Below, in pieces: positions 1 through 63,200 of a stretch of DNA of 64,000 nt. Both the position numbers and the translations under genes were made by a program. Origin of the DNA: an uncultured virus (IMG/VR IMGVR_UViG_3300030060_003974) (lineage: Duplodnaviria > Heunggongvirae > Uroviricota > Caudoviricetes); the IMG/VR virus record IMGVR_UViG_3300030060_003974, positions 1 to 64,000 of that record; one strand, 5' to 3'. The notes below the pieces were generated by a model. The model did no database searches, was not told the origin of the DNA, and saw nothing but the letters and a program-made list of their open reading frames with translations. Numbering within the stretch: position 1 is the stretch's first letter; every line of letters begins with the position of its first letter.

Positions 1-226
1 CACAGATTGCCTCGAGTAGATTGTCATCATAGTAGTACACATCCTCAAGTATGCTTGTTTTACCACTCATATCATCAGTAAAAATATAGACATCATAACT
101 GTCTGCAGTTTCCTGTGAATGAATCATATAATCTAGTCCACTAAAATCACTTGTAGTGATTTCTAGTCGTAGATGTTCGTTAACAAATTGCTTGAATGTT
201 AATACATTTAACTCGTGATTTTTCAT
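1..226 (-). CDS. Early hypothetical protein, 3'-truncated by window edge (MKNHELNVLTFKQFVNEHLRLEITT...)
   Basis: Hand-translated open frame from ATG at 226 to the window start; preceded by the ACTATCAAATTATG leader shared with other early genes. Confidence 0.75.
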   Translation of the reverse strand, partial: MKNHELNVLTFKQFVNEHLRLEITTSDFSGLDYMIHSQETADSYDVYIFTDDMSGKTSILEDVYYYDDNLLEAIC

Positions 227-248
227 AATTTGATAGTTTATTGTGATT

Positions 249-347
249 ATTATAAGACACCTCTCAGATAGTTTCGTTGCTATCACTAATCGAGCCTATT
301 CACTCTCTTCAAGGTGTTTCGGATTTTGAATCCTCATCAGTTATAAT
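249..347 (-). ncRNA. Type I hammerhead ribozyme HHR-1
   Basis: Minus strand: AUUAUAA CUGAUGA GGAUU-CAA-AAUCC GAA ACACCU-(49 nt)-AGGUGU C UUAUAAU; intact core, three stems, GUC site (cut after 256). Confidence 0.93.
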
Positions 348-349
348 GG

Positions 350-550
350 TTAAGCATTGTTAATCGCACCCTCATAAGAGGTTAGATTATTAGATTCCAT
401 TTCTAGTATTGTTAGCTTTGCAACCCTGATACACATTGAATATTCTGCAGGAGAAATTGATGTGTTATTGTCAAACATTTTGTTAGCTACATTCATAGCT
501 ATTTTCATATCGTTTTCAGGTTCAATACTAATAGTTTTTACTGTACTCAT
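350..550 (-). CDS. Early hypothetical protein (66 aa)
   Basis: ORF track; flanked by HHR-2 and HHR-1; ACTATCAATTATG leader. Confidence 0.8.
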   Translation of the reverse strand: MSTVKTISIEPENDMKIAMNVANKMFDNNTSISPAEYSMCIRVAKLTILEMESNNLTSYEGAINNA

Positions 551-569
551 AATTGATAGTTTTTATTGT

Positions 570-669
570 GATTAATGACTACCAACCAAAGTGGGATACC
601 GACTTACCGACTAGTGCGTTATGGTTGATAGTTTCGTAGGTGTTTAAACCTTTACTCATCAGATTAATC
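570..669 (-). ncRNA. Type I hammerhead ribozyme HHR-2
   Basis: Minus strand: GAUUAAU CUGAUGA GU(AA)AGGU-UUAAAC-ACCUAC GAA ACUAUCAACCA-(33 nt)-UGGUUGGUAGU C AUUAAUC; 11-bp stem III with a U.G wobble that pairs only on the - strand; cut after 577. Confidence 0.92.
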
Positions 670-673
670 TTGA

Positions 674-736
674 TTAGATGAACACAACCTCAAATTCATT
701 TGAGATGTCTTCTAGAGCAATTTCATAGCTTTCCAT
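674..736 (-). CDS. Possible 20-aa acidic micro-ORF (MESYEIALEDISNEFEVVFI)
   Basis: Hand-translated; starts 1 nt after the stop of 738..1088 and ends just before HHR-2. Confidence 0.4.
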   Translation of the reverse strand: MESYEIALEDISNEFEVVFI

Positions 737-737
737 A

Positions 738-1088
738 TTAGTAGTTTTTGTGATTAATAATGTATTTGTTTAATTTGTATTTATTAGATGAATCTAGCAT
801 CATAAAGAATTCATAAAAGATGGTTGTTCCTGTTAAGGTCAACACTTGCGAATATTCATCATTTGTGATGGTTGGACTCACGTTTTTGTAACGCTTAATT
901 AACACTCTTTGCGTTGTTTTTAGCTTACTCATCAAGACATCCCATTTGTCATATAAATGGTCTCTCAAAGTAGGATTGTCTGCCCAAACTAATCTAATAA
1001 AATCATACTCAAAATTGTTCGCATAAACATTGAATTTGTTTATATGGTCAACTGAATTAGCAACTATATTACTATAAGTAGTTTTCAT
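738..1088 (-). CDS. Early hypothetical protein (116 aa), first gene after the leftward promoter
   Basis: ORF track; AT-rich leader. Confidence 0.8.
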   Translation of the reverse strand: MKTTYSNIVANSVDHINKFNVYANNFEYDFIRLVWADNPTLRDHLYDKWDVLMSKLKTTQRVLIKRYKNVSPTITNDEYSQVLTLTGTTIFYEFFMMLDSSNKYKLNKYIINHKNY

Positions 1089-1127
1089 AATATTTAAATT
1101 TAATTGTGATTAATGACTATCAAAACA

Positions 1128-1224
1128 AGTATTACAGGCACTGCATTCATCCTGAGATTATAGTGGTATGCGAGGTAGCCCACTTGTAGTTCATAACGCT
1201 ACGTAATTTTTATGCAGTAATACT
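1128..1224 (-). ncRNA. Structured 5' leader of the early transcript (multi-stem, unassigned)
   Basis: Closing stem AGUAUUAC/GUAAUACU and ACUGCAU/AUGCAGU enclosing hairpins GUAG..CUAC and AGUGG..CCACU; lies right after promoter 1246-1253. Confidence 0.45.
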
Positions 1225-1245
1225 CGGTATGTCAAAGAACAGGTG

Positions 1246-1253
1246 CAAATATA
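1246..1253 (-). promoter_or_regulatory. Bacteroidota-type -7 promoter element (TATATTTG) driving the leftward early operon
   Basis: Matches TAnnTTTG on the - strand upstream of the first leftward gene. Confidence 0.65.
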
Positions 1254-1669
1254 GTATATAAGTAGCATAATTCTATAACAACTTACTGACAATGTGTCTA
1301 CTTTCTTCTGCATATTTGTCACACTTTTAATGTTTTCTTTATCAATGACTTAAGTGTCAACACTACAATATAGTTTGTTTAGCAATGTAAGGTATCGTGG
1401 AGGTGTTATCCCTTTGCTATTGATGTGCAAAGGTACTTCGTAATTTAAACTTCGTTAAACGTAAGCTATGTGGGGTTACGTGGGATGGTCATTTTGGGGG
1501 AAGGTCAAAATAAAAAACCTAAAAAAATGCAGAAAAAATTTTCAGAATCAAGATTCGAAACAAAAAAAATATGACTTTCTATTATAGGGGGTGCAACGTA
1601 AGACGACATATAACCCTCAACCTCTAGATATCTAATATTTTTTTATTACCTTTACAAAAAAATAAAACT

Positions 1670-1849
1670 ATGGATGGACTAATTGTAAAAAACGGAAGAC
1701 TAATCAATGAGAGACGACCTGGTGAGTCTGGTATAGCAATGGCGGCTAGAATAAAGCGTGCTGTTACAAATGATCGTGAAATAAATAAAATAGCTGAAGG
1801 AATTCAGTTAGCAGAAAATAAAAAGAAATTTAACCAACTAGAGTTTTAA
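1670..1849 (+). CDS. Hypothetical protein (59 aa, MDGLIVKNGRLINERRPG...)
   Basis: Hand-translated; preceded by promoter-like TACCTTTA (1647-1654), followed by a terminator. Confidence 0.7.
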   Translation: MDGLIVKNGRLINERRPGESGIAMAARIKRAVTNDREINKIAEGIQLAENKKKFNQLEF

Positions 1850-1880
1850 GTTTCCCATTTGTGTGTTTTGATTAGTAGTG

Positions 1881-1915
1881 AGAAGAGTATCTATTCAGGT
1901 ACTCTTTTCTTTTTT
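1881..1915 (+). terminator. Intrinsic terminator
   Basis: AGAAGAGTATCT-ATTC-AGGTACTCTTTT hairpin plus T-run. Confidence 0.7.
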
Positions 1916-1922
1916 AACATAC

Positions 1923-2098
1923 TATGTTAATTTTATGTTGATTTTAAAATTACTTAAGTTATTGATATTTATATATTTAAATACTATTTATGTTAATATG
2001 TTAAAAATTATATATAAAAAAATAATATAAAAAAAAATTACAGTGCTAAAGTTTTATAAGCCTAGTAATATTTATAAAAAAATCAACATATCAACATA
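1923..2098. repeat. AT-rich region with ATGTTRA iteron-like repeats (four direct, plus two inverted TCAACAT at about 2083-2097); candidate origin/operator
   Basis: Repeats seen directly; 1923-2004 is colinear with 55220-55299. Confidence 0.55.
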
Positions 2099-2118
2099 TT
2101 ACTTTTCATTTTAATTTA

Positions 2119-2126
2119 TATATTTG
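2119..2126 (+). promoter_or_regulatory. TAnnTTTG promoter element upstream of groEL
   Basis: TATATTTG 22 nt before the ATG. Confidence 0.6.
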
Positions 2127-2148
2127 TACTAATCTAATACAATAAAAT

Positions 2149-3789
2149 ATGCAAACAGACTCAGGATACATTCCTAAAAACCTAGACTTTGAAGAACACG
2201 CAAGAGAAAAATTAATAAACGGAATTACTGCAATTTCTAAAGCAGTTAAGAGTACGCTAGGCCCACGAGGCAGAACAGTACTAATAGAGTCTCCACAACA
2301 TACTAACGGAATAACGGTAACTAAAGACGGGGTTACAGTCGCAAGGTCAGTTGCTTTACTTGATCCAGTTGAAAACTTAGCAATACAAATGATGCAGGAA
2401 GCTGCGAGTCGTACTGCAACTTCGGCTGGTGATGGTACAACTACCGCTATTGTTTTGACTGAAGCTTTAGTAAAAGCTGGACAAACCCATATTAAAGCCA
2501 AAAATAATGTGACCGAAGTTATTAAGCATGTTAATAGGTTGTCGGCTGAGATTATTAATGACCTTAAAAAAAATAGTAAAAAAGTTTCTAAATCAAAACT
2601 TGGTGCAGTTGCAGCTATTTCAGCAAACAACGATAAGGAGCTGGGAAGTATTATTGCTGATGCTTATAAGCAAGTTGGGTCAGATGGAATTGTTACAGTT
2701 GAAAAATCAATGACAGCTGAAACTTACGCAGAGGTTACTAACGGTATTAAAGTAGATAGAGGATATACTTCACCACTCTTTATTAATAACCAAAAGAAAG
2801 ATGAATGTATTTTAGAAGGAGTAAGAGTTTTAGTTTGTGACCAGGAGATTACTAATGTATTACAAATTGAGAATATTTTAAAACCAATAATAAATAAAGG
2901 TGATAAACTTTTAATTATAGCTGAGTGTAATTCTAATGTTGTAAACACACTTGCTGCCAATGTAGTTCGTAATGGTTTAAAGTTCTGTAATATCACACCT
3001 CCATCATTTGGTTATAAAACCCATGAACTAATGCAGGATATTGCTTTATCAGTTGGTGCAAAATACTTTTCTGAAAAGACTGGTGATGACTTATCACTTA
3101 TGCAGTTTAGTGATTTAGGTTATGCTGATAAAATAATTATAGGAAAAGACAGTTCGGTGTTAATTAAAAACCAAGAGATGACTGAGGAAATAAAAGAAAG
3201 AATTAGTCAGCTTAGAGAACAGCAAGAAAATACCACACACTTAGGAGATAGAAAGTTTATTAATGAACGTATTGCTAGTTTAGCAGGTTCTATCGGTTGT
3301 ATTTATGTAGGAGGTAATAGTGATGTAGAGCAAAAAGAAAAATTTGACCGAGTCGATGACTCGGTATGCGCTGTGCGCAGCGCCTTGCAAGAAGGAATCT
3401 TACCAGGCGGGGGACTAGCTTTACTTAAATTATCTGAGCAACTACAATCAAAAGACGCTAATGATGACGAAAAGGTTGCTGTTAAAATATTGAAAGACGC
3501 ATTAACAACCCCATGCAAACAAATATTAATAAACGCAGGAATAGATTATAAAGAAATAATTAGAAATCTTTCAGTAACTCAAACCCACACCCTTAAAGGT
3601 AAGGCAGGAATGTCGTATGGGTATGATGTGAAAAATCAAAAATACGGTGATATGTATACTATGGGGGTTATTGATCCTCTAAAAGTTACAAAGAATGCTT
3701 TAATAAATGCAGTATCTGTAGCAACAACTATATTAAGTACTAATGCAATTATAACCCATAAGAGATTAAATGAAGAAAAGAAAGCTTAA
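2149..3789 (+). CDS. groEL: Phage-encoded chaperonin GroEL (Cpn60)
   Basis: 546 aa; STLGPRGR, VTKDGVTVA, AGDGTTTA, EGILPGGG, GVIDP motifs; no GGM tail. Confidence 0.97.
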   Translation: MQTDSGYIPKNLDFEEHAREKLINGITAISKAVKSTLGPRGRTVLIESPQHTNGITVTKDGVTVARSVALLDPVENLAIQMMQEAASRTATSAGDGTTTAIVLTEALVKAGQTHIKAKNNVTEVIKHVNRLSAEIINDLKKNSKKVSKSKLGAVAAISANNDKELGSIIADAYKQVGSDGIVTVEKSMTAETYAEVTNGIKVDRGYTSPLFINNQKKDECILEGVRVLVCDQEITNVLQIENILKPIINKGDKLLIIAECNSNVVNTLAANVVRNGLKFCNITPPSFGYKTHELMQDIALSVGAKYFSEKTGDDLSLMQFSDLGYADKIIIGKDSSVLIKNQEMTEEIKERISQLREQQENTTHLGDRKFINERIASLAGSIGCIYVGGNSDVEQKEKFDRVDDSVCAVRSALQEGILPGGGLALLKLSEQLQSKDANDDEKVAVKILKDALTTPCKQILINAGIDYKEIIRNLSVTQTHTLKGKAGMSYGYDVKNQKYGDMYTMGVIDPLKVTKNALINAVSVATTILSTNAIITHKRLNEEKKA

Positions 3790-3901
3790 TTCAAAAAACC
3801 CAAAGTACGCACCTAAAGAAGAAAAGAAAATAGAAACTATTAGGAGAGAACTAATAGCGAACAAAGGCAAAGTAAAAGTTTACGCTGTCTTTAAAGATTA
3901 A
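3770..3901 (+). CDS. Small basic hypothetical protein (43 aa)
   Basis: Hand-translated MKKRKLNSKNPKY...; fills the gap after groEL. Confidence 0.55.
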   Translation: MKKRKLNSKNPKYAPKEEKKIETIRRELIANKGKVKVYAVFKD

Positions 3902-3916
3902 TTTAAATTAAATATA

Positions 3917-4111
3917 ATGCCAATAAATAACGAAATATTTGACTCTTATAGATTAGAAGTAAAAAAAATTCACAACGCTATAAGATTATTAGCTAGACAA
4001 GGATACACTGTAATAGACTTAGAAGGTCAAGTCATTACTAAATGGAATGTAGAAAGCGGGAATTACCCCAACATAACATACAATAGAACACCTAAACAAC
4101 TAGATCACTAA
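3917..4111 (+). CDS. Hypothetical protein (64 aa)
   Basis: ORF track; TAATG coupling to groES. Confidence 0.7.
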   Translation: MPINNEIFDSYRLEVKKIHNAIRLLARQGYTVIDLEGQVITKWNVESGNYPNITYNRTPKQLDH

Positions 4112-4368
4112 TGCAACCAATCGGAAAGTACATAGCAGTTAAACCTATAGAAGAAGAAATAAAAACTGATTCAGGGTTATTGTTATCTTCAAAAGAAGCT
4201 AAAGACTTTAGATATAAAAAAGGATCAGTAATAAAACCTGGCAGTGAAGTTACTGTAATAAAAGCTGATGATATTATATACTATGATAAAAACGCTGGAC
4301 ACTCTATGCTTTTAGATAATGAGTCTATGACTATTATTCAAGAGCGAGATGTCGTTGTAGTTGTATAA
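4111..4368 (+). CDS. groES: Co-chaperonin GroES (Cpn10)
   Basis: MQPIGKYIAVKP..KTDSGLLL mobile loop; IIQERDVV C-terminus; next to groEL. Confidence 0.9.
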   Translation: MQPIGKYIAVKPIEEEIKTDSGLLLSSKEAKDFRYKKGSVIKPGSEVTVIKADDIIYYDKNAGHSMLLDNESMTIIQERDVVVVV

Positions 4369-60042: not shown

Positions 60043-60224
60043 AATTTTAAATGTTTAGGGTCGTAATTTTTACCATCTTGATATTCGAGGATTGCATAAA
60101 CATCTGCTTTGTTATCATAAGCAAACTTCATTGCCTCTTTTTTAGTTTCAAATTCATAGTCATTCTCTATGTAATCTCCACTCTCTGTGTACTCTCGTAA
60201 TTCTACTATATAATTCATATTCAT
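60039..60224 (-). CDS. Early hypothetical protein (61 aa)
   Basis: ORF track; FETKKEA motif. Confidence 0.75.
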   Translation of the reverse strand: MNMNYIVELREYTESGDYIENDYEFETKKEAMKFAYDNKADVYAILEYQDGKNYDPKHLKL

Positions 60225-60231
60225 ATGTTTT

Positions 60232-60329
60232 GGTTAATAAGGAAGATGATACGACATATAATCATCTATTACATTGTTGGTTTCTCCTAACAACAACCTT
60301 TTCGGATATTGAATCCTCATCAGTTAACC
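60232..60329 (-). ncRNA. Type I hammerhead ribozyme HHR-7 (branched stem III, UUA site)
   Basis: GGUUAA CUGAUGA GGAU-UCAAU-AUCC GAA AAGG-(two hairpins)-CCUU A UUAACC; cut after 60238. Confidence 0.87.
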
Positions 60330-60979
60330 TCTATTGATTTAATTATTTCCTCGCATAGCTGAGGTGGTATCTTGCTTCTCTCGTGATTACCTTTTAGTCC
60401 CTGTGTACCTGTTTGGCTTCCTCTTGGTGCTGGTGTATGACACGAGTCCCCATTCTTACACATTGGTCGTGGAGTCCATCCCATATCGTTAGTCCAAATG
60501 TCAGTAGGTTTCATTCTTGAGTCGCCATATTGACAATAGGTAACAGTTTCTCTTCTGTGTTTCATATCCTCCCAATGAGGTGCTTTTCTCATTTTACCTC
60601 TTGGGTTTTCTACGTACCACAATAGCTTTGGATTCTTGTCTAGATAATCAGAAATGATTCCTAATGTTTTCTCGAAGATTTTTAAGCCGATCATCTCAGG
60701 ATCACGAGGGGTAAAATTCTCTCCTGACACCCATTTCTTACCTATACAGGCAACAGAAAAATCAGTACAGGGTGGAGATGCCCAAATGACATCAGGAATC
60801 CACAACTCATCTAACTCTCCTACATTCATTTCATTCATACGATAGTCCCAATCCATAATATCGCCCACCCAATTTGTATTGGGATAAGCTACATTATCAA
60901 CAGAGAATACCTCGTGACCACGTTGCTCGGCAACTTTGCCTACACTACGTGAACCACTAAATAGTTCTAGTATTTTCAT
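60320..60979 (-). CDS. C5 cytosine DNA methyltransferase
   Basis: LELFSG (motif I), ASPPC (IV), VENP (VI); stop codon lies in the HHR-7 core. Confidence 0.85.
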   Translation of the reverse strand: MKILELFSGSRSVGKVAEQRGHEVFSVDNVAYPNTNWVGDIMDWDYRMNEMNVGELDELWIPDVIWASPPCTDFSVACIGKKWVSGENFTPRDPEMIGLKIFEKTLGIISDYLDKNPKLLWYVENPRGKMRKAPHWEDMKHRRETVTYCQYGDSRMKPTDIWTNDMGWTPRPMCKNGDSCHTPAPRGSQTGTQGLKGNHERSKIPPQLCEEIIKSIEVN

Positions 60980-60992
60980 AATTGTTGGTTTT

Positions 60993-61072
60993 GATTAAGA
61001 CACAAGAGTAATAAGCTACCANNNNNNNNNNCACCTCTTGTGTTTCGGACATCAAGTCCTCATCAGTTAATC
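60993..61072 (-). ncRNA. Type I hammerhead ribozyme HHR-6
   Basis: GAUUAA CUGAUGA GGAC-UUGAU-GUCC GAA ACACAAGAG-(loop with N gap)-CUCUUGUGU C UUAAUC; cut after 60999. Confidence 0.9.
61022..61031. other. Assembly gap (10 N) inside the stem III loop of HHR-6
   Basis: Run of n characters. Confidence 0.99.
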
Positions 61073-61590: not shown

Positions 61591-61608
61591 AATTTGATAG
61601 TGTTATTG

Positions 61609-61671
61609 GTTTGTACCACCAAAACCCCAACACGTTTTACTGTGTTGAGGTAAGGGCAGATAATCACAAAC
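61609..61671 (-). ncRNA. Long intergenic hairpin (motif B, copy 2)
   Basis: Minus strand GUUUGU..UCUGCCCUUACCUCAACAC-AGUAAAAC-GUGUUGGGGUUUUGGUGGU-ACAAAC. Confidence 0.55.
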
Positions 61672-61675
61672 TAAA

Positions 61676-61921
61676 TCAGGATGCGTTTAAGGGCGATTCT
61701 ATATTGTACTCGCCATCCATAATAATTGCATCAATAATTTCTTCTTCATAATTGTATAGGACATCAGTGACATCATCTCCATTGAGAATCATTTTATCTA
61801 TTGTAATCTCCTCAATAGGTGGGGAATCATAACTTCCTGACTCAACGTAGTGTTCGTAATAAACTTCTACTACATTGTTTTCGGACAGTTCCCAATCGAA
61901 TTGTAATTTAGTAGCTTTCAT
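61676..61921 (-). CDS. Early acidic hypothetical protein (81 aa)
   Basis: ORF track. Confidence 0.75.
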   Translation of the reverse strand: MKATKLQFDWELSENNVVEVYYEHYVESGSYDSPPIEEITIDKMILNGDDVTDVLYNYEEEIIDAIIMDGEYNIESPLNAS

Positions 61922-62833: not shown

Positions 62834-62892
62834 ATTATAAGACACCTGTGTTTGACAGGCGTTTCGGATTTTAAATCCTCATCAGTTATAAT
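62834..62892 (-). ncRNA. Type I hammerhead ribozyme HHR-4
   Basis: AUUAUAA CUGAUGA GGAUU-UAA-AAUCC GAA ACGCCUGU-CAAAC-ACAGGUGU C UUAUAAU; G.U wobble valid only on the - strand; cut after 62841. Confidence 0.95.
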
Positions 62893-63200
62893 TGAAATTG
62901 TCTAAGAAAATATCTGTACAGGTTTTTGACTCCTACTATTCTATTCTTCCACTGAGCATCTTGTGTTTTGTAAGTTCTAGTGGTTGTGTCATAGAAGACA
63001 TTTCCTGAACAATACCATTGATGAAAATGGTATCTTCTAAGATTAGATTTATTCGGTTTACCTTTTAAATCGTATTCAGCGATTTTATCTTCAGTTAATT
63101 TATCTTTAACCTCTTGTAAACTCCACTTGTATCCATCCTCTTCAAAAAACTCTTGATAGAATCGAAGAAACTTGATACTGTAATTGAATTGATTGTACAT
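62886..63200 (-). CDS. Early hypothetical protein (104 aa)
   Basis: ORF track; TAA stop abuts the HHR-4 core. Confidence 0.78.
   Translation of the reverse strand: MYNQFNYSIKFLRFYQEFFEEDGYKWSLQEVKDKLTEDKIAEYDLKGKPNKSNLRRYHFHQWYCSGNVFYDTTTRTYKTQDAQWKNRIVGVKNLYRYFLRQFQL

What the first reader, a model, noticed from the sequence alone, without database searches (positions are those of the whole stretch)
570..1123. Orphan hammerhead cleavage-site half that HHR-2 could cut across a whole gene
Seen: at 1108-1123 the - strand reads UUGAUAGU-C-AUUAAUC, 26 nt before ATG 1088, the same spacing as at HHR-2, but with no CUGAUGA core upstream. It is fully complementary to both arms of the HHR-2 catalytic strand (GAUUAAU...GAA ACUAUCAA). 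Over these 8 bp of stem III it is Watson-Crick where HHR-2's own substrate has a wobble. Inference: one catalytic strand may serve two sites, folding first as a type III-like hammerhead whose stem I loop (~440 nt) holds ORF 738..1088, then as the local type I. The alternative is a decayed duplicate.
Basis: partly seen in the sequence, partly recalled or inferred. Interest (0 to 1): 0.75.

Follow-up and report, generated by a model that had tools for sequence, protein, structure and literature searches.

The report
Coreless hammerhead cut site matching HHR-2
At the head of a marine phage operon sits a conserved hammerhead "target half" with no ribozyme core of its own; it matches the core of the next hammerhead one gene downstream, so one RNA enzyme may cut at two places, though no cut has been shown.

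Summary
On the - strand, 1123..1108 reads UUGAUAGUC|AUUAAUC, 26 nt before ATG 1088. It pairs 8 + 7 bp with the arms of the HHR-2 catalytic strand (669..622). No local core exists (motif scan, Rfam, own covariance model). The genome holds only two sites matching these arms at >=6 + >=6 bp: this one and HHR-2's own.

The site is not a decaying leftover. All 13 HHR-2 orthologue loci with enough upstream DNA (7 distinct sequences, about 5 lineages) keep a coreless matching site 112-705 nt upstream of the core. Neutral divergence between the main clades is near saturation. GAUAGU is invariant in the orphan, whereas the local substrates carry wobbles. None of these relatives has a complete hammerhead there.

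Best reading (about 0.5): a second, distal substrate of HHR-2. This is a discontinuous type III-like hammerhead whose stem I loop holds one or two translated ORFs, and it would trim the 5' UTR.

Caveats:
- There is no RNA evidence.
- The stem I covariation travels as one recombination package, because a module breakpoint lies at the site.
- Folding energies are indecisive.

Rivals: a retained leader or junction element, or an upstream competitor that regulates HHR-2. Earlier unchecked notes of this scan describe shared-enzyme hammerhead half-sites in other marine phages.

The parts
1206..1235 (-). Promoter-like site (TTGACA, 18 nt, AAAAAT) that would start the operon transcript near 1199
   Evidence: Best consensus match in 500..2200 at 10 of 12, although the number of such sites in the region is no higher than in shuffles. 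TTGACAT is kept in relatives L018, L013, L037 and L055. The transcription start is inferred.
1116..1199 (-). 5' UTR piece, about 85 nt, that a cut at the orphan site would release; its last 8 nt (1123..1116) are the orphan's stem III strand
   Evidence: Homologous in all 6 compared relatives, with conserved blocks GGGCNACCU and CUCARGAUGAAWGCAGU (the latter not kept in L016). No consensus secondary structure (RNAalifold 0.0).
1108..1123 (-). Orphan hammerhead substrate half-site UUGAUAGU-C-AUUAAUC; the predicted scissile bond lies between 1115 and 1114
   Evidence: No own core. Conserved in 13 of 13 orthologue loci.
1089..1114 (-). 26-nt leader of the first cistron; its first 17 nt are the same as the leader that follows HHR-2
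738..1088 (-). ORF of 116 aa inside the would-be stem I loop; no known family
   Evidence: 0 PHROG families. Relatives carry other genes or none at this position.
674..736 (-). Conserved 20-codon mini-ORF (MESYEIALEDISNEFEVVFI); its stop lies 11 nt before C3 of HHR-2
   Evidence: Present directly 5' of the core in all 7 distinct relatives at 20-27 aa. Differences between window and L018 are synonymous.
622..669 (-). HHR-2 catalytic strand: stem I 5' arm GAUUAAU (669..663), CUGAUGA, stem II and GAAA (662..632), stem III 5' arm (632..622)
   Evidence: The isolated 111-nt RNA has the three-way junction as its minimum-energy fold. Own family model gives 50.6 bits, E 2e-13.
570..588 (-). HHR-2's own (local) substrate: stem III 3' arm 588..578, C17 = 577, stem I 3' arm 576..570
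   Evidence: 11 + 7 bp with one G.U wobble.
350..550 (-). ORF of 66 aa after HHR-2; in relatives L013 and L037 its homologue sits between the orphan site and HHR-2 instead

Best explanation
The orphan is a functional second substrate site of the HHR-2 hammerhead.

Proposed mechanism (inferred):
- The operon transcript starts near 1199.
- When the HHR-2 catalytic strand (669..622) is made, it can pair with the upstream site. Stem III forms as UUGAUAGU/ACUAUCAA and stem I as AUUAAUC/GAUUAAU.
- This gives a discontinuous, type III-like hammerhead. Its stem I is closed by a 438-nt loop that carries ORF 738..1088 and the mini-ORF.
- Cleavage after C1115 would remove an approximately 85-nt 5' UTR piece. 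The first cistron would then carry the same 5'-hydroxyl leader (AUUAAUCAC...) that the local type I fold of HHR-2 gives the next cistron after C577.

Shown:
- the sequence complementarity;
- the absence of a local core;
- conservation of the arrangement in relatives.

Inferred:
- that the pairing forms in vivo;
- that the site is cut;
- the order of the two cuts;
- the benefit, namely uniform, possibly stabilised or better translated 5' ends.

The site most likely arose as a copy of the 3' half of an HHR-2-like ribozyme.
For: (1) Fit to the enzyme strand.
- The site pairs 8 + 7 contiguous Watson-Crick bp, has a GUC triplet, and sits on the same strand and transcript.
- It is one of only 2 such sites in the genome, against 0.3 expected.
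- Only HHR-2 among the 9 cores matches it.

(2) No local catalyst.
- The motif scan finds none.
- Rfam finds none at gathering score or at E<=10.
- The covariance model R1 finds nothing at 1076..1338(-) at E<=10. The same model detects HHR-2 (50.6 bits) and HHR-1, which has a different stem II (17.8 bits).
- In 6 relatives there are no hits upstream of HHR-2 at the orphan at E<=1.

(3) Conservation.
- Of 78 loci sharing HHR-2's stem II, 15 are orthologues by their arms.
- 13 of the 13 orthologues with enough upstream DNA have a coreless site with >=6 + >=6 bp. The other 2 are cut off by contig ends.
- Distances to C3 are 112, 112, 313, 320, 393, 453 and 705 nt. The intervening genes differ between relatives.

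(4) Specificity.
- Among 122 cores with a local site, in all loci fetched up to that call except L001-L008 (the window's own record), coreless matching sites gave 20 rows.
- 18 of these rows are HHR-2 orthologues. The other 2 are one weak 6 + 6 match 2 kb away in L025/L026.

(5) Selection.
- The flanking 59-aa gene is only 54-58% identical between the window clade and the L016/L037 clades. Third-position identity is 14 of 31 and 20 of 33.
- Despite this, GAUAGU, the triplet (H17 never G, 7 of 7) and the arm complementarity are kept.
- The orphan hexamer is Watson-Crick in 7 of 7 sequences. The local substrates have drifted to GGUAGU and GGUGGU wobbles. This argues against passive homogenisation from the local copy.

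(6) Other partners ruled out.
- The only conserved complement of GAUAGU is the HHR-2 arm.
- The 5' UTR has no consensus fold.
- The L016/L055 leaders listed lack ACUAUC.

(7) Feasibility.
- The same catalytic module is used in true type III topology in L017 and L040.
- The family fold covaries strongly: 97.6% of cells are paired, 11 of 17 pairs change on both sides, and 0 of 500 shuffles reach the observed covariation score, paired-cell share or count of both-side-changed cells (24-27 of 500 reach the two measures that count pairs or pair types).
- Forced orphan-fold and forced local-fold energies are within about 3 kcal/mol in 4 of 7 sequences.
- A mammalian discontinuous hammerhead with a several-hundred-nt insert is active (passages of review PMC6765202).
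Against: - No RNA evidence exists. No RNA run holds the stretch and nothing from RNA contigs laid on it, so this is uninformative.
- The orphan helix (6-8 bp, long-range) competes with a 7-13 bp intramolecular local stem III.
- In minimum-energy folds of the full or truncated transcripts, the orphan-enzyme pairs appear in only 1 of 7 truncated cases (7 of 13 pairs in L037) and in 0 of 7 full cases.
- The forced orphan fold is 5-10 kcal/mol worse than the forced local fold in L099, L018 and L013.
- There is no independent covariation. The 6 stem III pairs never vary.
- The stem I change (AUUAAUC to ACUUAAU) is shared by the local leader and travels with the core as one module. L055 is 93% like L037 upstream of the site but 95% like L016 downstream of it.
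- At stem III position 8, the local strand and the enzyme co-vary but the orphan does not follow.
- In the L037/L016/L055 clades the conserved block extends 5' (AUCACUCG) beyond what pairs in the active fold. There the predicted best duplex with the enzyme strand is an inactive one that covers part of the core.
- More distant relatives, found through the flanking 59-aa gene, have neither an HHR-2 type ribozyme nor an orphan at the first gene.
Confidence: 0.5

Rival explanations
1. Retained junction or leader element that is never cut. The site is the 3' half of a former complete hammerhead, or of a duplicated HHR-2. Its front half was replaced by the promoter and 5' UTR. It persists because the leader is needed for translation of the first cistron, and because the conserved sequence serves as the homology at which gene modules recombine.
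For: - Homology with the HHR-2 3' half runs beyond the pairing region, from about -15 to +17.
- Leaders after every hammerhead in the operon share a family resemblance.
- A recombination breakpoint maps at the site.
- The genes between the orphan and HHR-2 differ between relatives.
- An earlier unchecked note of this scan (e1-6084152) read coreless hammerhead halves in a soil phage as ribosome-binding leaders at cassette junctions.
Against: - A leader role explains the 3' side, not the invariant GAUAGU plus a non-G nucleotide 5' of the cut. Other leaders in the operon are preceded by quite different sequences, such as AGGUGUC and CUUGUGUC.
- GAUAGU is kept at near-saturated divergence.
- The orphan stays Watson-Crick where the local copy has drifted, so it is not being copied from the local site.
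- If the enzyme arm pairs with the site at all, the result is a complete hammerhead.
Confidence: 0.25
2. Upstream competitor that regulates HHR-2. The site is transcribed first. It captures the stem I arm, and either the stem III arm or part of the core, of the HHR-2 catalytic strand. This would delay or gate the local cut at 577, perhaps depending on ribosomes on the leader or the mini-ORF.
For: - In L037, L016 and L055 the best predicted duplex of the orphan segment with the enzyme strand pairs stem I plus ACUCG with UGAGU of the core. That is an inactive arrangement. Its energy is -8.8 to -8.9 kcal/mol, against -8.5 to -9.0 for the local strand offered in trans.
- The block AUCACUCG is identical in these three clades.
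- The mini-ORF stop lies 1-11 nt before C3 in all relatives, so translation could remodel the enzyme strand.
- Engineered ribozymes can be tuned by upstream competing sequences (preprint 10.1101/739326, seen only as a search listing and the start of its abstract).
Against: - The window clade lacks the ACUCG block. There the predicted duplex is the active stems I + III arrangement, which should cleave rather than merely block.
- A pure decoy would be safest with G at position 17, yet H17 is C or A in 7 of 7 sequences.
Confidence: 0.15
3. The site is processed, but by something else: an unrecognised local ribozyme formed by the conserved 5' UTR, or a host or phage RNase that recognises the conserved sequence.
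For: The 5' UTR has conserved blocks (GGGCNACCU, CUCARGAUGAAWGCAGU) of unknown role. 'UAAUCU(CAG)GAUGA' resembles a hammerhead front half with a 3-nt insertion.
Against: - There is no Rfam family at E<=10.
- There is no consensus structure.
- The GAUGA block is not kept in L016, although the site is.
- The resemblance to the HHR-2 front half is no better than shuffles: 254 of 500 reach the same score.
- There is no stem I or GAAA partner locally.
Confidence: 0.05

Closest known systems
Clustered hammerhead ribozymes flanking single genes or short gene blocks in (pro)phage polycistronic RNAs (Perreault et al. 2011, PMC3088659; passages read)
   Same: An operon of small phage genes is punctuated by hammerheads just upstream of start codons. 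Nine cores lie on one strand here. The proposed role is processing of a long transcript.
   Different: In the passages I read, every cut site has its own complete ribozyme. Here one site has none and matches the core of the next ribozyme. Those authors considered spliced or circular products and report not detecting them.
Discontinuous hammerhead in mammalian Clec2 3' UTRs (Martick et al. 2008; known to me through passages of review PMC6765202, and a mention in PMC3088659; the paper itself was not read)
   Same: Substrate and enzyme strands are separated by several hundred nt, and the ribozyme forms only when the flanks come together. This is the same topology as orphan plus HHR-2 (stem I closed by a long insert).
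   Different: - The host is a phage, not a mammal.
- The insert carries translated ORFs.
- The insert length varies from 112 to 705 nt among relatives.
- The same enzyme strand also has an adjacent, stronger substrate.
Type III hammerheads built on the same catalytic module (L017, L040)
   Same: They have an identical stem II sequence and a type III order of strands.
   Different: Their stem I is a short local hairpin, and they have a single substrate.
Earlier unchecked notes of this scan on other marine phages: one hammerhead enzyme strand with 8-10 coreless substrate halves (e1-6308480, e1-6200247, e1-6314658)
   Same: They describe coreless target halves in front of genes that match a single enzyme strand in the same operon.
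   Different: Those notes describe one enzyme serving many downstream sites. Here most genes have complete ribozymes, and the single coreless site lies upstream of its enzyme. I did not examine those genomes.

Membership tests
Hammerhead ribozyme (HHR-2 as a complete type I member) | Conserved core CUGANGA ... GAAA and an NUH cleavage triplet | tested here: met
   CUGAUGA at 662..656, GAAA at 635..632, GUC with C17 = 577.
Hammerhead ribozyme (HHR-2 as a complete type I member) | Three helices around the core, supported by covariation | tested here: met
   The isolated RNA's minimum-energy fold is the three-way junction. In 25 distinct family members, 97.6% of cells are paired and 11 of 17 pairs change on both sides. 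The covariation score is 0.582 against 0.146 in shuffles, reached by 0 of 500. The 78 loci show 30 distinct arm combinations.
Hammerhead ribozyme (HHR-2 as a complete type I member) | Score at or above the gathering threshold of an Rfam hammerhead model | tested here: not met
   No Rfam match in the window at gathering score. No hammerhead family at E<=10 in 1..4000. The only hit is RAGATH-1-hammerhead at 26.0 bits, against a threshold of 56.3, at 62836-62913. The long stem III inserts and this stem II are apparently not covered by the curated models.
Hammerhead ribozyme (HHR-2 as a complete type I member) | Self-cleavage giving 2',3'-cyclic phosphate and 5'-OH ends | not testable with these tools
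   No RNA run holds the stretch.
Discontinuous (type III-like) hammerhead formed by the orphan site and the HHR-2 strand | Substrate strand with an NUH triplet that pairs with both arms of a distant enzyme strand on the same RNA | tested here: met
   8 + 7 bp in the window. 6-8 + 7 bp in all 7 distinct relatives, the 7th stem I pair being a G.U wobble in L016 and L055. H17 is C or A in all 7.
Discontinuous (type III-like) hammerhead formed by the orphan site and the HHR-2 strand | No catalytic core of its own next to the substrate | tested here: met
Discontinuous (type III-like) hammerhead formed by the orphan site and the HHR-2 strand | Independent compensatory changes between substrate and enzyme arms | tested here: inconclusive
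   Stem III pairs never vary. Three stem I pairs change on both sides between clades, but they change together with the local leader and inside one recombination module.
Discontinuous (type III-like) hammerhead formed by the orphan site and the HHR-2 strand | Core-dependent cleavage at the distal site | not testable with these tools
   This needs transcription and cleavage mapping.
   No motif. No R1 hit at E<=10 in the window or at E<=1 in 6 relatives. The nearest look-alike, CUCAGGAUGAA, is not significant.

The most novel reading that the evidence does not exclude
Suppose both the orphan and the local site are cut. The released RNA (HO-AUUAAUC ... ORF116, mini-ORF, HHR-2 ... GUC>p) would have ends that fit the HHR-2 active site exactly, because the sequence 3' of both cuts is the same. 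The ribozyme's reverse reaction, or a cellular RtcB-type ligase, could then close this RNA into a circular mRNA. Alternatively it could join the 5' UTR piece to the downstream message. Either outcome would be a ribozyme-made excision or circularisation of a swappable gene cassette in a DNA phage. Variable cassette content between two identical half-sites in relatives fits this idea. Nothing tests it.
Probability: 0.08. Interest if true: 0.9.

Novelty: new variant of a known kind. Interest (0 to 1): 0.65.

Why it matters
- What hammerhead arrays do in phages is still open (review PMC6765202, passages).
- A natural hammerhead strand that serves two sites, one of them across whole translated genes, would be new in three ways. 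It would be the first discontinuous hammerhead outside mammals. It would show that phage hammerheads can act beyond their own hairpin. It would give a simple, testable system of 700 nt and two cuts.
- That system could be used to ask why phages give each cistron a ribozyme-made 5'-OH leader.
- The finding also shows that motif or covariance-model scans for complete ribozymes undercount cut sites.

Tried and rejected
- RNA evidence. No RNA holder was listed for 300-1300. Three metatranscriptome runs from samples whose DNA holds the phage laid 0 contigs. This is uninformative.
- Rfam. Nothing at gathering score, and nothing relevant at E<=10.
- A scan of viral contigs with a 14-nt orphan block returned more than 109 stretches. 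Of the 80 loci read, 5 had any core downstream, and only one (L158, the same contig as L016) was genuine. The pattern was too short.
- A 23-nt 5' UTR pattern found only the L009 contig.
- Protein searches with ORF116 and ORF66 brought only 2 and 1 relatives.
- The genome-contig scan gave 2 hits, neither of them orthologous.
- Alignment A1, from orphan to local site, misplaced the orphan of L016 and L055. I made the pair table by script instead.
- Alignment A2 misaligned three window hammerheads and was replaced by A3.
- The idea that the 5' UTR is a structured RNA was rejected: there is no consensus fold.
- One CAGG/CCUG to CAAG/CUUG double change between the window and L018 is not kept in L013 or the other clades.
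- The idea that the 5' UTR is the decayed enzyme half is not significant.
- The idea that GAUAGU acts against the ACUAUCAA leader motif was rejected as a general role. The L016 and L055 leaders listed lack that motif but keep the site.
- L065, L072 and L067 looked like distant-substrate cases. They are ordinary local or tandem ribozymes.
- Minimum-energy and forced folds of 290-877-nt transcripts do not decide between the two folds.
- Place and sequence look-ups in the scan's notes for this genome gave nothing.
- Literature. The searches, and the passages read, turned up no description of a hammerhead strand shared by an upstream coreless site and a local site. This is a limited search, not proof of absence. 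Supplements were not opened.

Full report
**Context.** The window is bases 1-64000 of a 64,683-bp virus record that CheckV rates as complete.
- A long - strand operon of small genes begins at a promoter-like site at 1235..1206. It runs through position 1 and continues from the record's end down to about 59400.
- The operon carries 9 CUGAUGA...GAAAC cores, all on this strand. Most lie 20-30 nt before a start codon, and each is followed by a related A-rich leader.
- The phage also encodes GroEL and GroES.
- Hammerhead arrays flanking phage genes have been known since Perreault et al. 2011 (PMC3088659; passages).

**The observation.**
- The - strand 1123..1108 reads UUGAUAGU-C-AUUAAUC.
- The site lies 26 nt before ATG 1088, the same spacing as between C577 and ATG 550.
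- There is no core nearby.
- It pairs 8 + 7 Watson-Crick bp with the arms of the HHR-2 catalytic strand, GAUUAAU-CUGAUGA-stem II-GAAA-CUAUCAA. HHR-2's own substrate pairs 11 + 7 with one G.U wobble.
- Only these two sites in the genome match the arms at >=6 + >=6 bp. Simulated genomes average 0.3.
- None of the other 8 cores matches the orphan.
- HHR-2 alone folds as a three-way junction.

**The family is a genuine hammerhead.**
- I found 78 loci (9 viral, 69 metagenomic) that share HHR-2's unusual stem II.
- 74 have a local type I site, 2 are type III, and 2 have an interrupted stem III seen by eye.
- The loci show 30 different arm combinations.
- On 25 distinct compact members, 97.6% of cells pair and 11 of 17 pairs change on both sides. 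No shuffle out of 500 reaches the observed covariation score.
- Rfam does not detect these RNAs, so membership rests on the motif and the covariation, not on a curated model.

**No local ribozyme at the orphan.**
- A covariance model built from the family (R1) scores HHR-2 at 50.6 bits. It also finds HHR-1, with a different stem II and a 46-nt insert, at E about 9e-4.
- It gives nothing on the - strand between 1076 and 1338 at E<=10.
- In 6 relatives all hits lie at or downstream of HHR-2. The one exception is a weak 19.5-bit match inside the ORF of L099.
- The 5' UTR has no consensus fold.
- Its 'UAAUCU(CAG)GAUGA' resemblance to a hammerhead front half is no better than chance: 254 of 500 shuffles reach the same score.

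**Relatives.**
- Fifteen of the 78 loci are HHR-2 orthologues by their arms. Two are cut off by contig ends.
- The other 13 all carry a coreless upstream site matching their own enzyme strand. They give 7 distinct sequences in about five lineages.
- The distance from the site to C3 is 112, 112, 313, 320, 393, 453 or 705 nt.
- The content between the site and the core varies:
  - only a 26-codon mini-ORF;
  - a homologue of the window's ORF66 plus the mini-ORF;
  - a 98-, 116- or 200-aa ORF plus the mini-ORF.
- Across all loci fetched up to that call (the window's own L001-L008 left out), coreless matching sites are essentially confined to this family: 18 of 20 rows among 122 cores.
- More distant relatives, reached through the flanking 59-aa gene, have other first hammerheads and no orphan.

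**Is the site under selection?**
- The 59-aa gene next door is 54-58% identical between the window clade and the L016/L037 clades. Third-position identity is 14 of 31 and 20 of 33, which is close to saturation.
- The 150 nt upstream of the site are only 63-66% identical between these clades.
- Yet GAUAGU, a non-G nucleotide 17, and a 3' arm complementary to the resident enzyme are present in all 7 sequences.
- The orphan hexamer is never wobbled. The local substrates have drifted to GGUAGU and GGUGGU. So the orphan is not simply being overwritten from the local copy. A short long-range helix would also tolerate wobbles less well.
- The only conserved complement of GAUAGU is the HHR-2 stem III arm. 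A local hairpin partner is not conserved. The ACUAUCAA leader motif is absent from the L016/L055 leaders listed.

**Limits of the evidence.**
- The stem I 'covariation' (AUUAAUC/GAUUAAU against ACUUAAU/GUUAAGU) is not independent. The local leader changes identically.
- L055 is a mosaic. It is 93% identical to L037 upstream of the site, and 95% identical to L016 in the 75 nt before the core (28 of 30 in the leader just downstream of the site). A recombination breakpoint therefore lies at the orphan, and the leader, mini-ORF and core move as one package.
- The homology between the orphan and the HHR-2 3' half extends beyond the pairing region. The site therefore began as a copy.
- Energy models do not decide the question.
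  - Forced orphan-fold and forced local-fold energies are within about 3 kcal/mol in 4 of 7 transcripts. They favour the local fold by 5-10 kcal/mol in the other 3.
  - Neither fold is the predicted minimum.
- In the L037/L016/L055 clades the conserved block extends to AUCACUCG. There the best predicted bimolecular duplex is an inactive one covering part of the core. This keeps a 'competitor' role alive.
- No RNA data exist for this phage.

**Mechanism proposed.**
- The site is transcribed first. When the enzyme strand appears, 112-705 nt later, it can close a type III-like hammerhead across the intervening ORFs and cut after C1115.
- The local substrate, made 60-95 nt later, then forms the more stable type I fold and is cut after C577.
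- Both cistrons would then start with the same 5'-OH leader.
- The precedent for such a topology is the Clec2 discontinuous hammerhead (review PMC6765202, passages).
- Using one enzyme strand for an upstream coreless site as well as a local one did not appear in the papers I searched and read in part.
- Earlier unchecked notes of this scan describe shared-enzyme half-sites in other marine phages. I did not test them.

**Verdict.**
- I rate the distal-substrate reading at about 0.5. The alternatives are a non-cleaved junction or leader element at 0.25, a competitor that regulates HHR-2 at 0.15, and other processing at 0.05.
- If true, this is a new variant of a known kind.

Noticed in passing
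window 674-736 (-): A 20-codon mini-ORF (MESYEIALEDISNEFEVVFI) overlaps the stop of ORF116 (TAATATG) and ends 11 nt before C3 of HHR-2. A 20-27-codon homologue sits directly 5' of the core in all 7 distinct relatives. The two differences between the window and L018 are synonymous. A terminating ribosome would cover the catalytic strand.
   Followed up: partly
window 61591-61685 (-): A gene junction with the usual ACACUAUCAAAUUAUG leader but no hammerhead core. It folds as a long irregular hairpin (-25.9 kcal/mol, z -2.6). No Rfam match at E<=10. It may be another kind of processing element.
   Followed up: partly
window - strand leaders before ATGs at 550, 226, 63200, 62815, 62178, 61590, and before ATGs at 64560 and 64041 of the same record, outside the window: The motif ACUAUCAA sits immediately upstream of many start codons. 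The stem III 3' strand of HHR-2 (UUGGUAGU) and the orphan (UUGAUAGU) are complementary to it. Uncut RNA could therefore mask the start region of ORF66. The motif is absent from the L016/L055 leaders examined.
   Followed up: partly
L037, L055, L016: L055 is a mosaic. It is 141 of 151 identical to L037 upstream of the orphan, and 71 of 75 identical to L016 in the 75 nt before the core (28 of 30 in the leader just downstream of the site). A module breakpoint therefore falls at the half-site.
   Followed up: yes
L017 and L040: The same stem II sequence as HHR-2 is used in compact type III hammerheads. The catalytic module is therefore shared between topologies in marine phages.
   Followed up: partly
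L099:1220-1283 (+); window 886-940 (-): A CUGAUGAG-containing stretch inside the ORF (codons for Leu-Met-Ser) gives a weak hit to the family model: 19.5 bits in L099 and 5.2 bits in the window, where an extra U breaks the core. This is probably chance.
   Followed up: no
window 610-604 (-): An internal ACUAGUC lies in the large stem III loop of HHR-2. The covariance model prefers it as the cut site because it cannot span the long loop. Its stem I pairing is poor, so 577 remains the likely site.
   Followed up: partly
window 61021-61030: A run of 10 N lies inside the stem III loop of the hammerhead whose core is at 61042-61066.
   Followed up: no
window 60224-60330 (-): The hammerhead with core at 60280-60323 would cut after UUA rather than GUC. 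It has a long, branched stem III.
   Followed up: no
window 2149-3789 (+) and 4111-4368 (+): Phage-encoded GroEL (PHROG 5725, E 4e-138) and GroES (E 3e-14), transcribed divergently from the hammerhead operon.
   Followed up: partly
window 1240-1650: The whole 580-bp divergent intergenic region is 86% identical to L022 and 71% identical to L021. This is far more conserved than ORF116, which is 50% identical at the amino-acid level. Its function is unknown.
   Followed up: no
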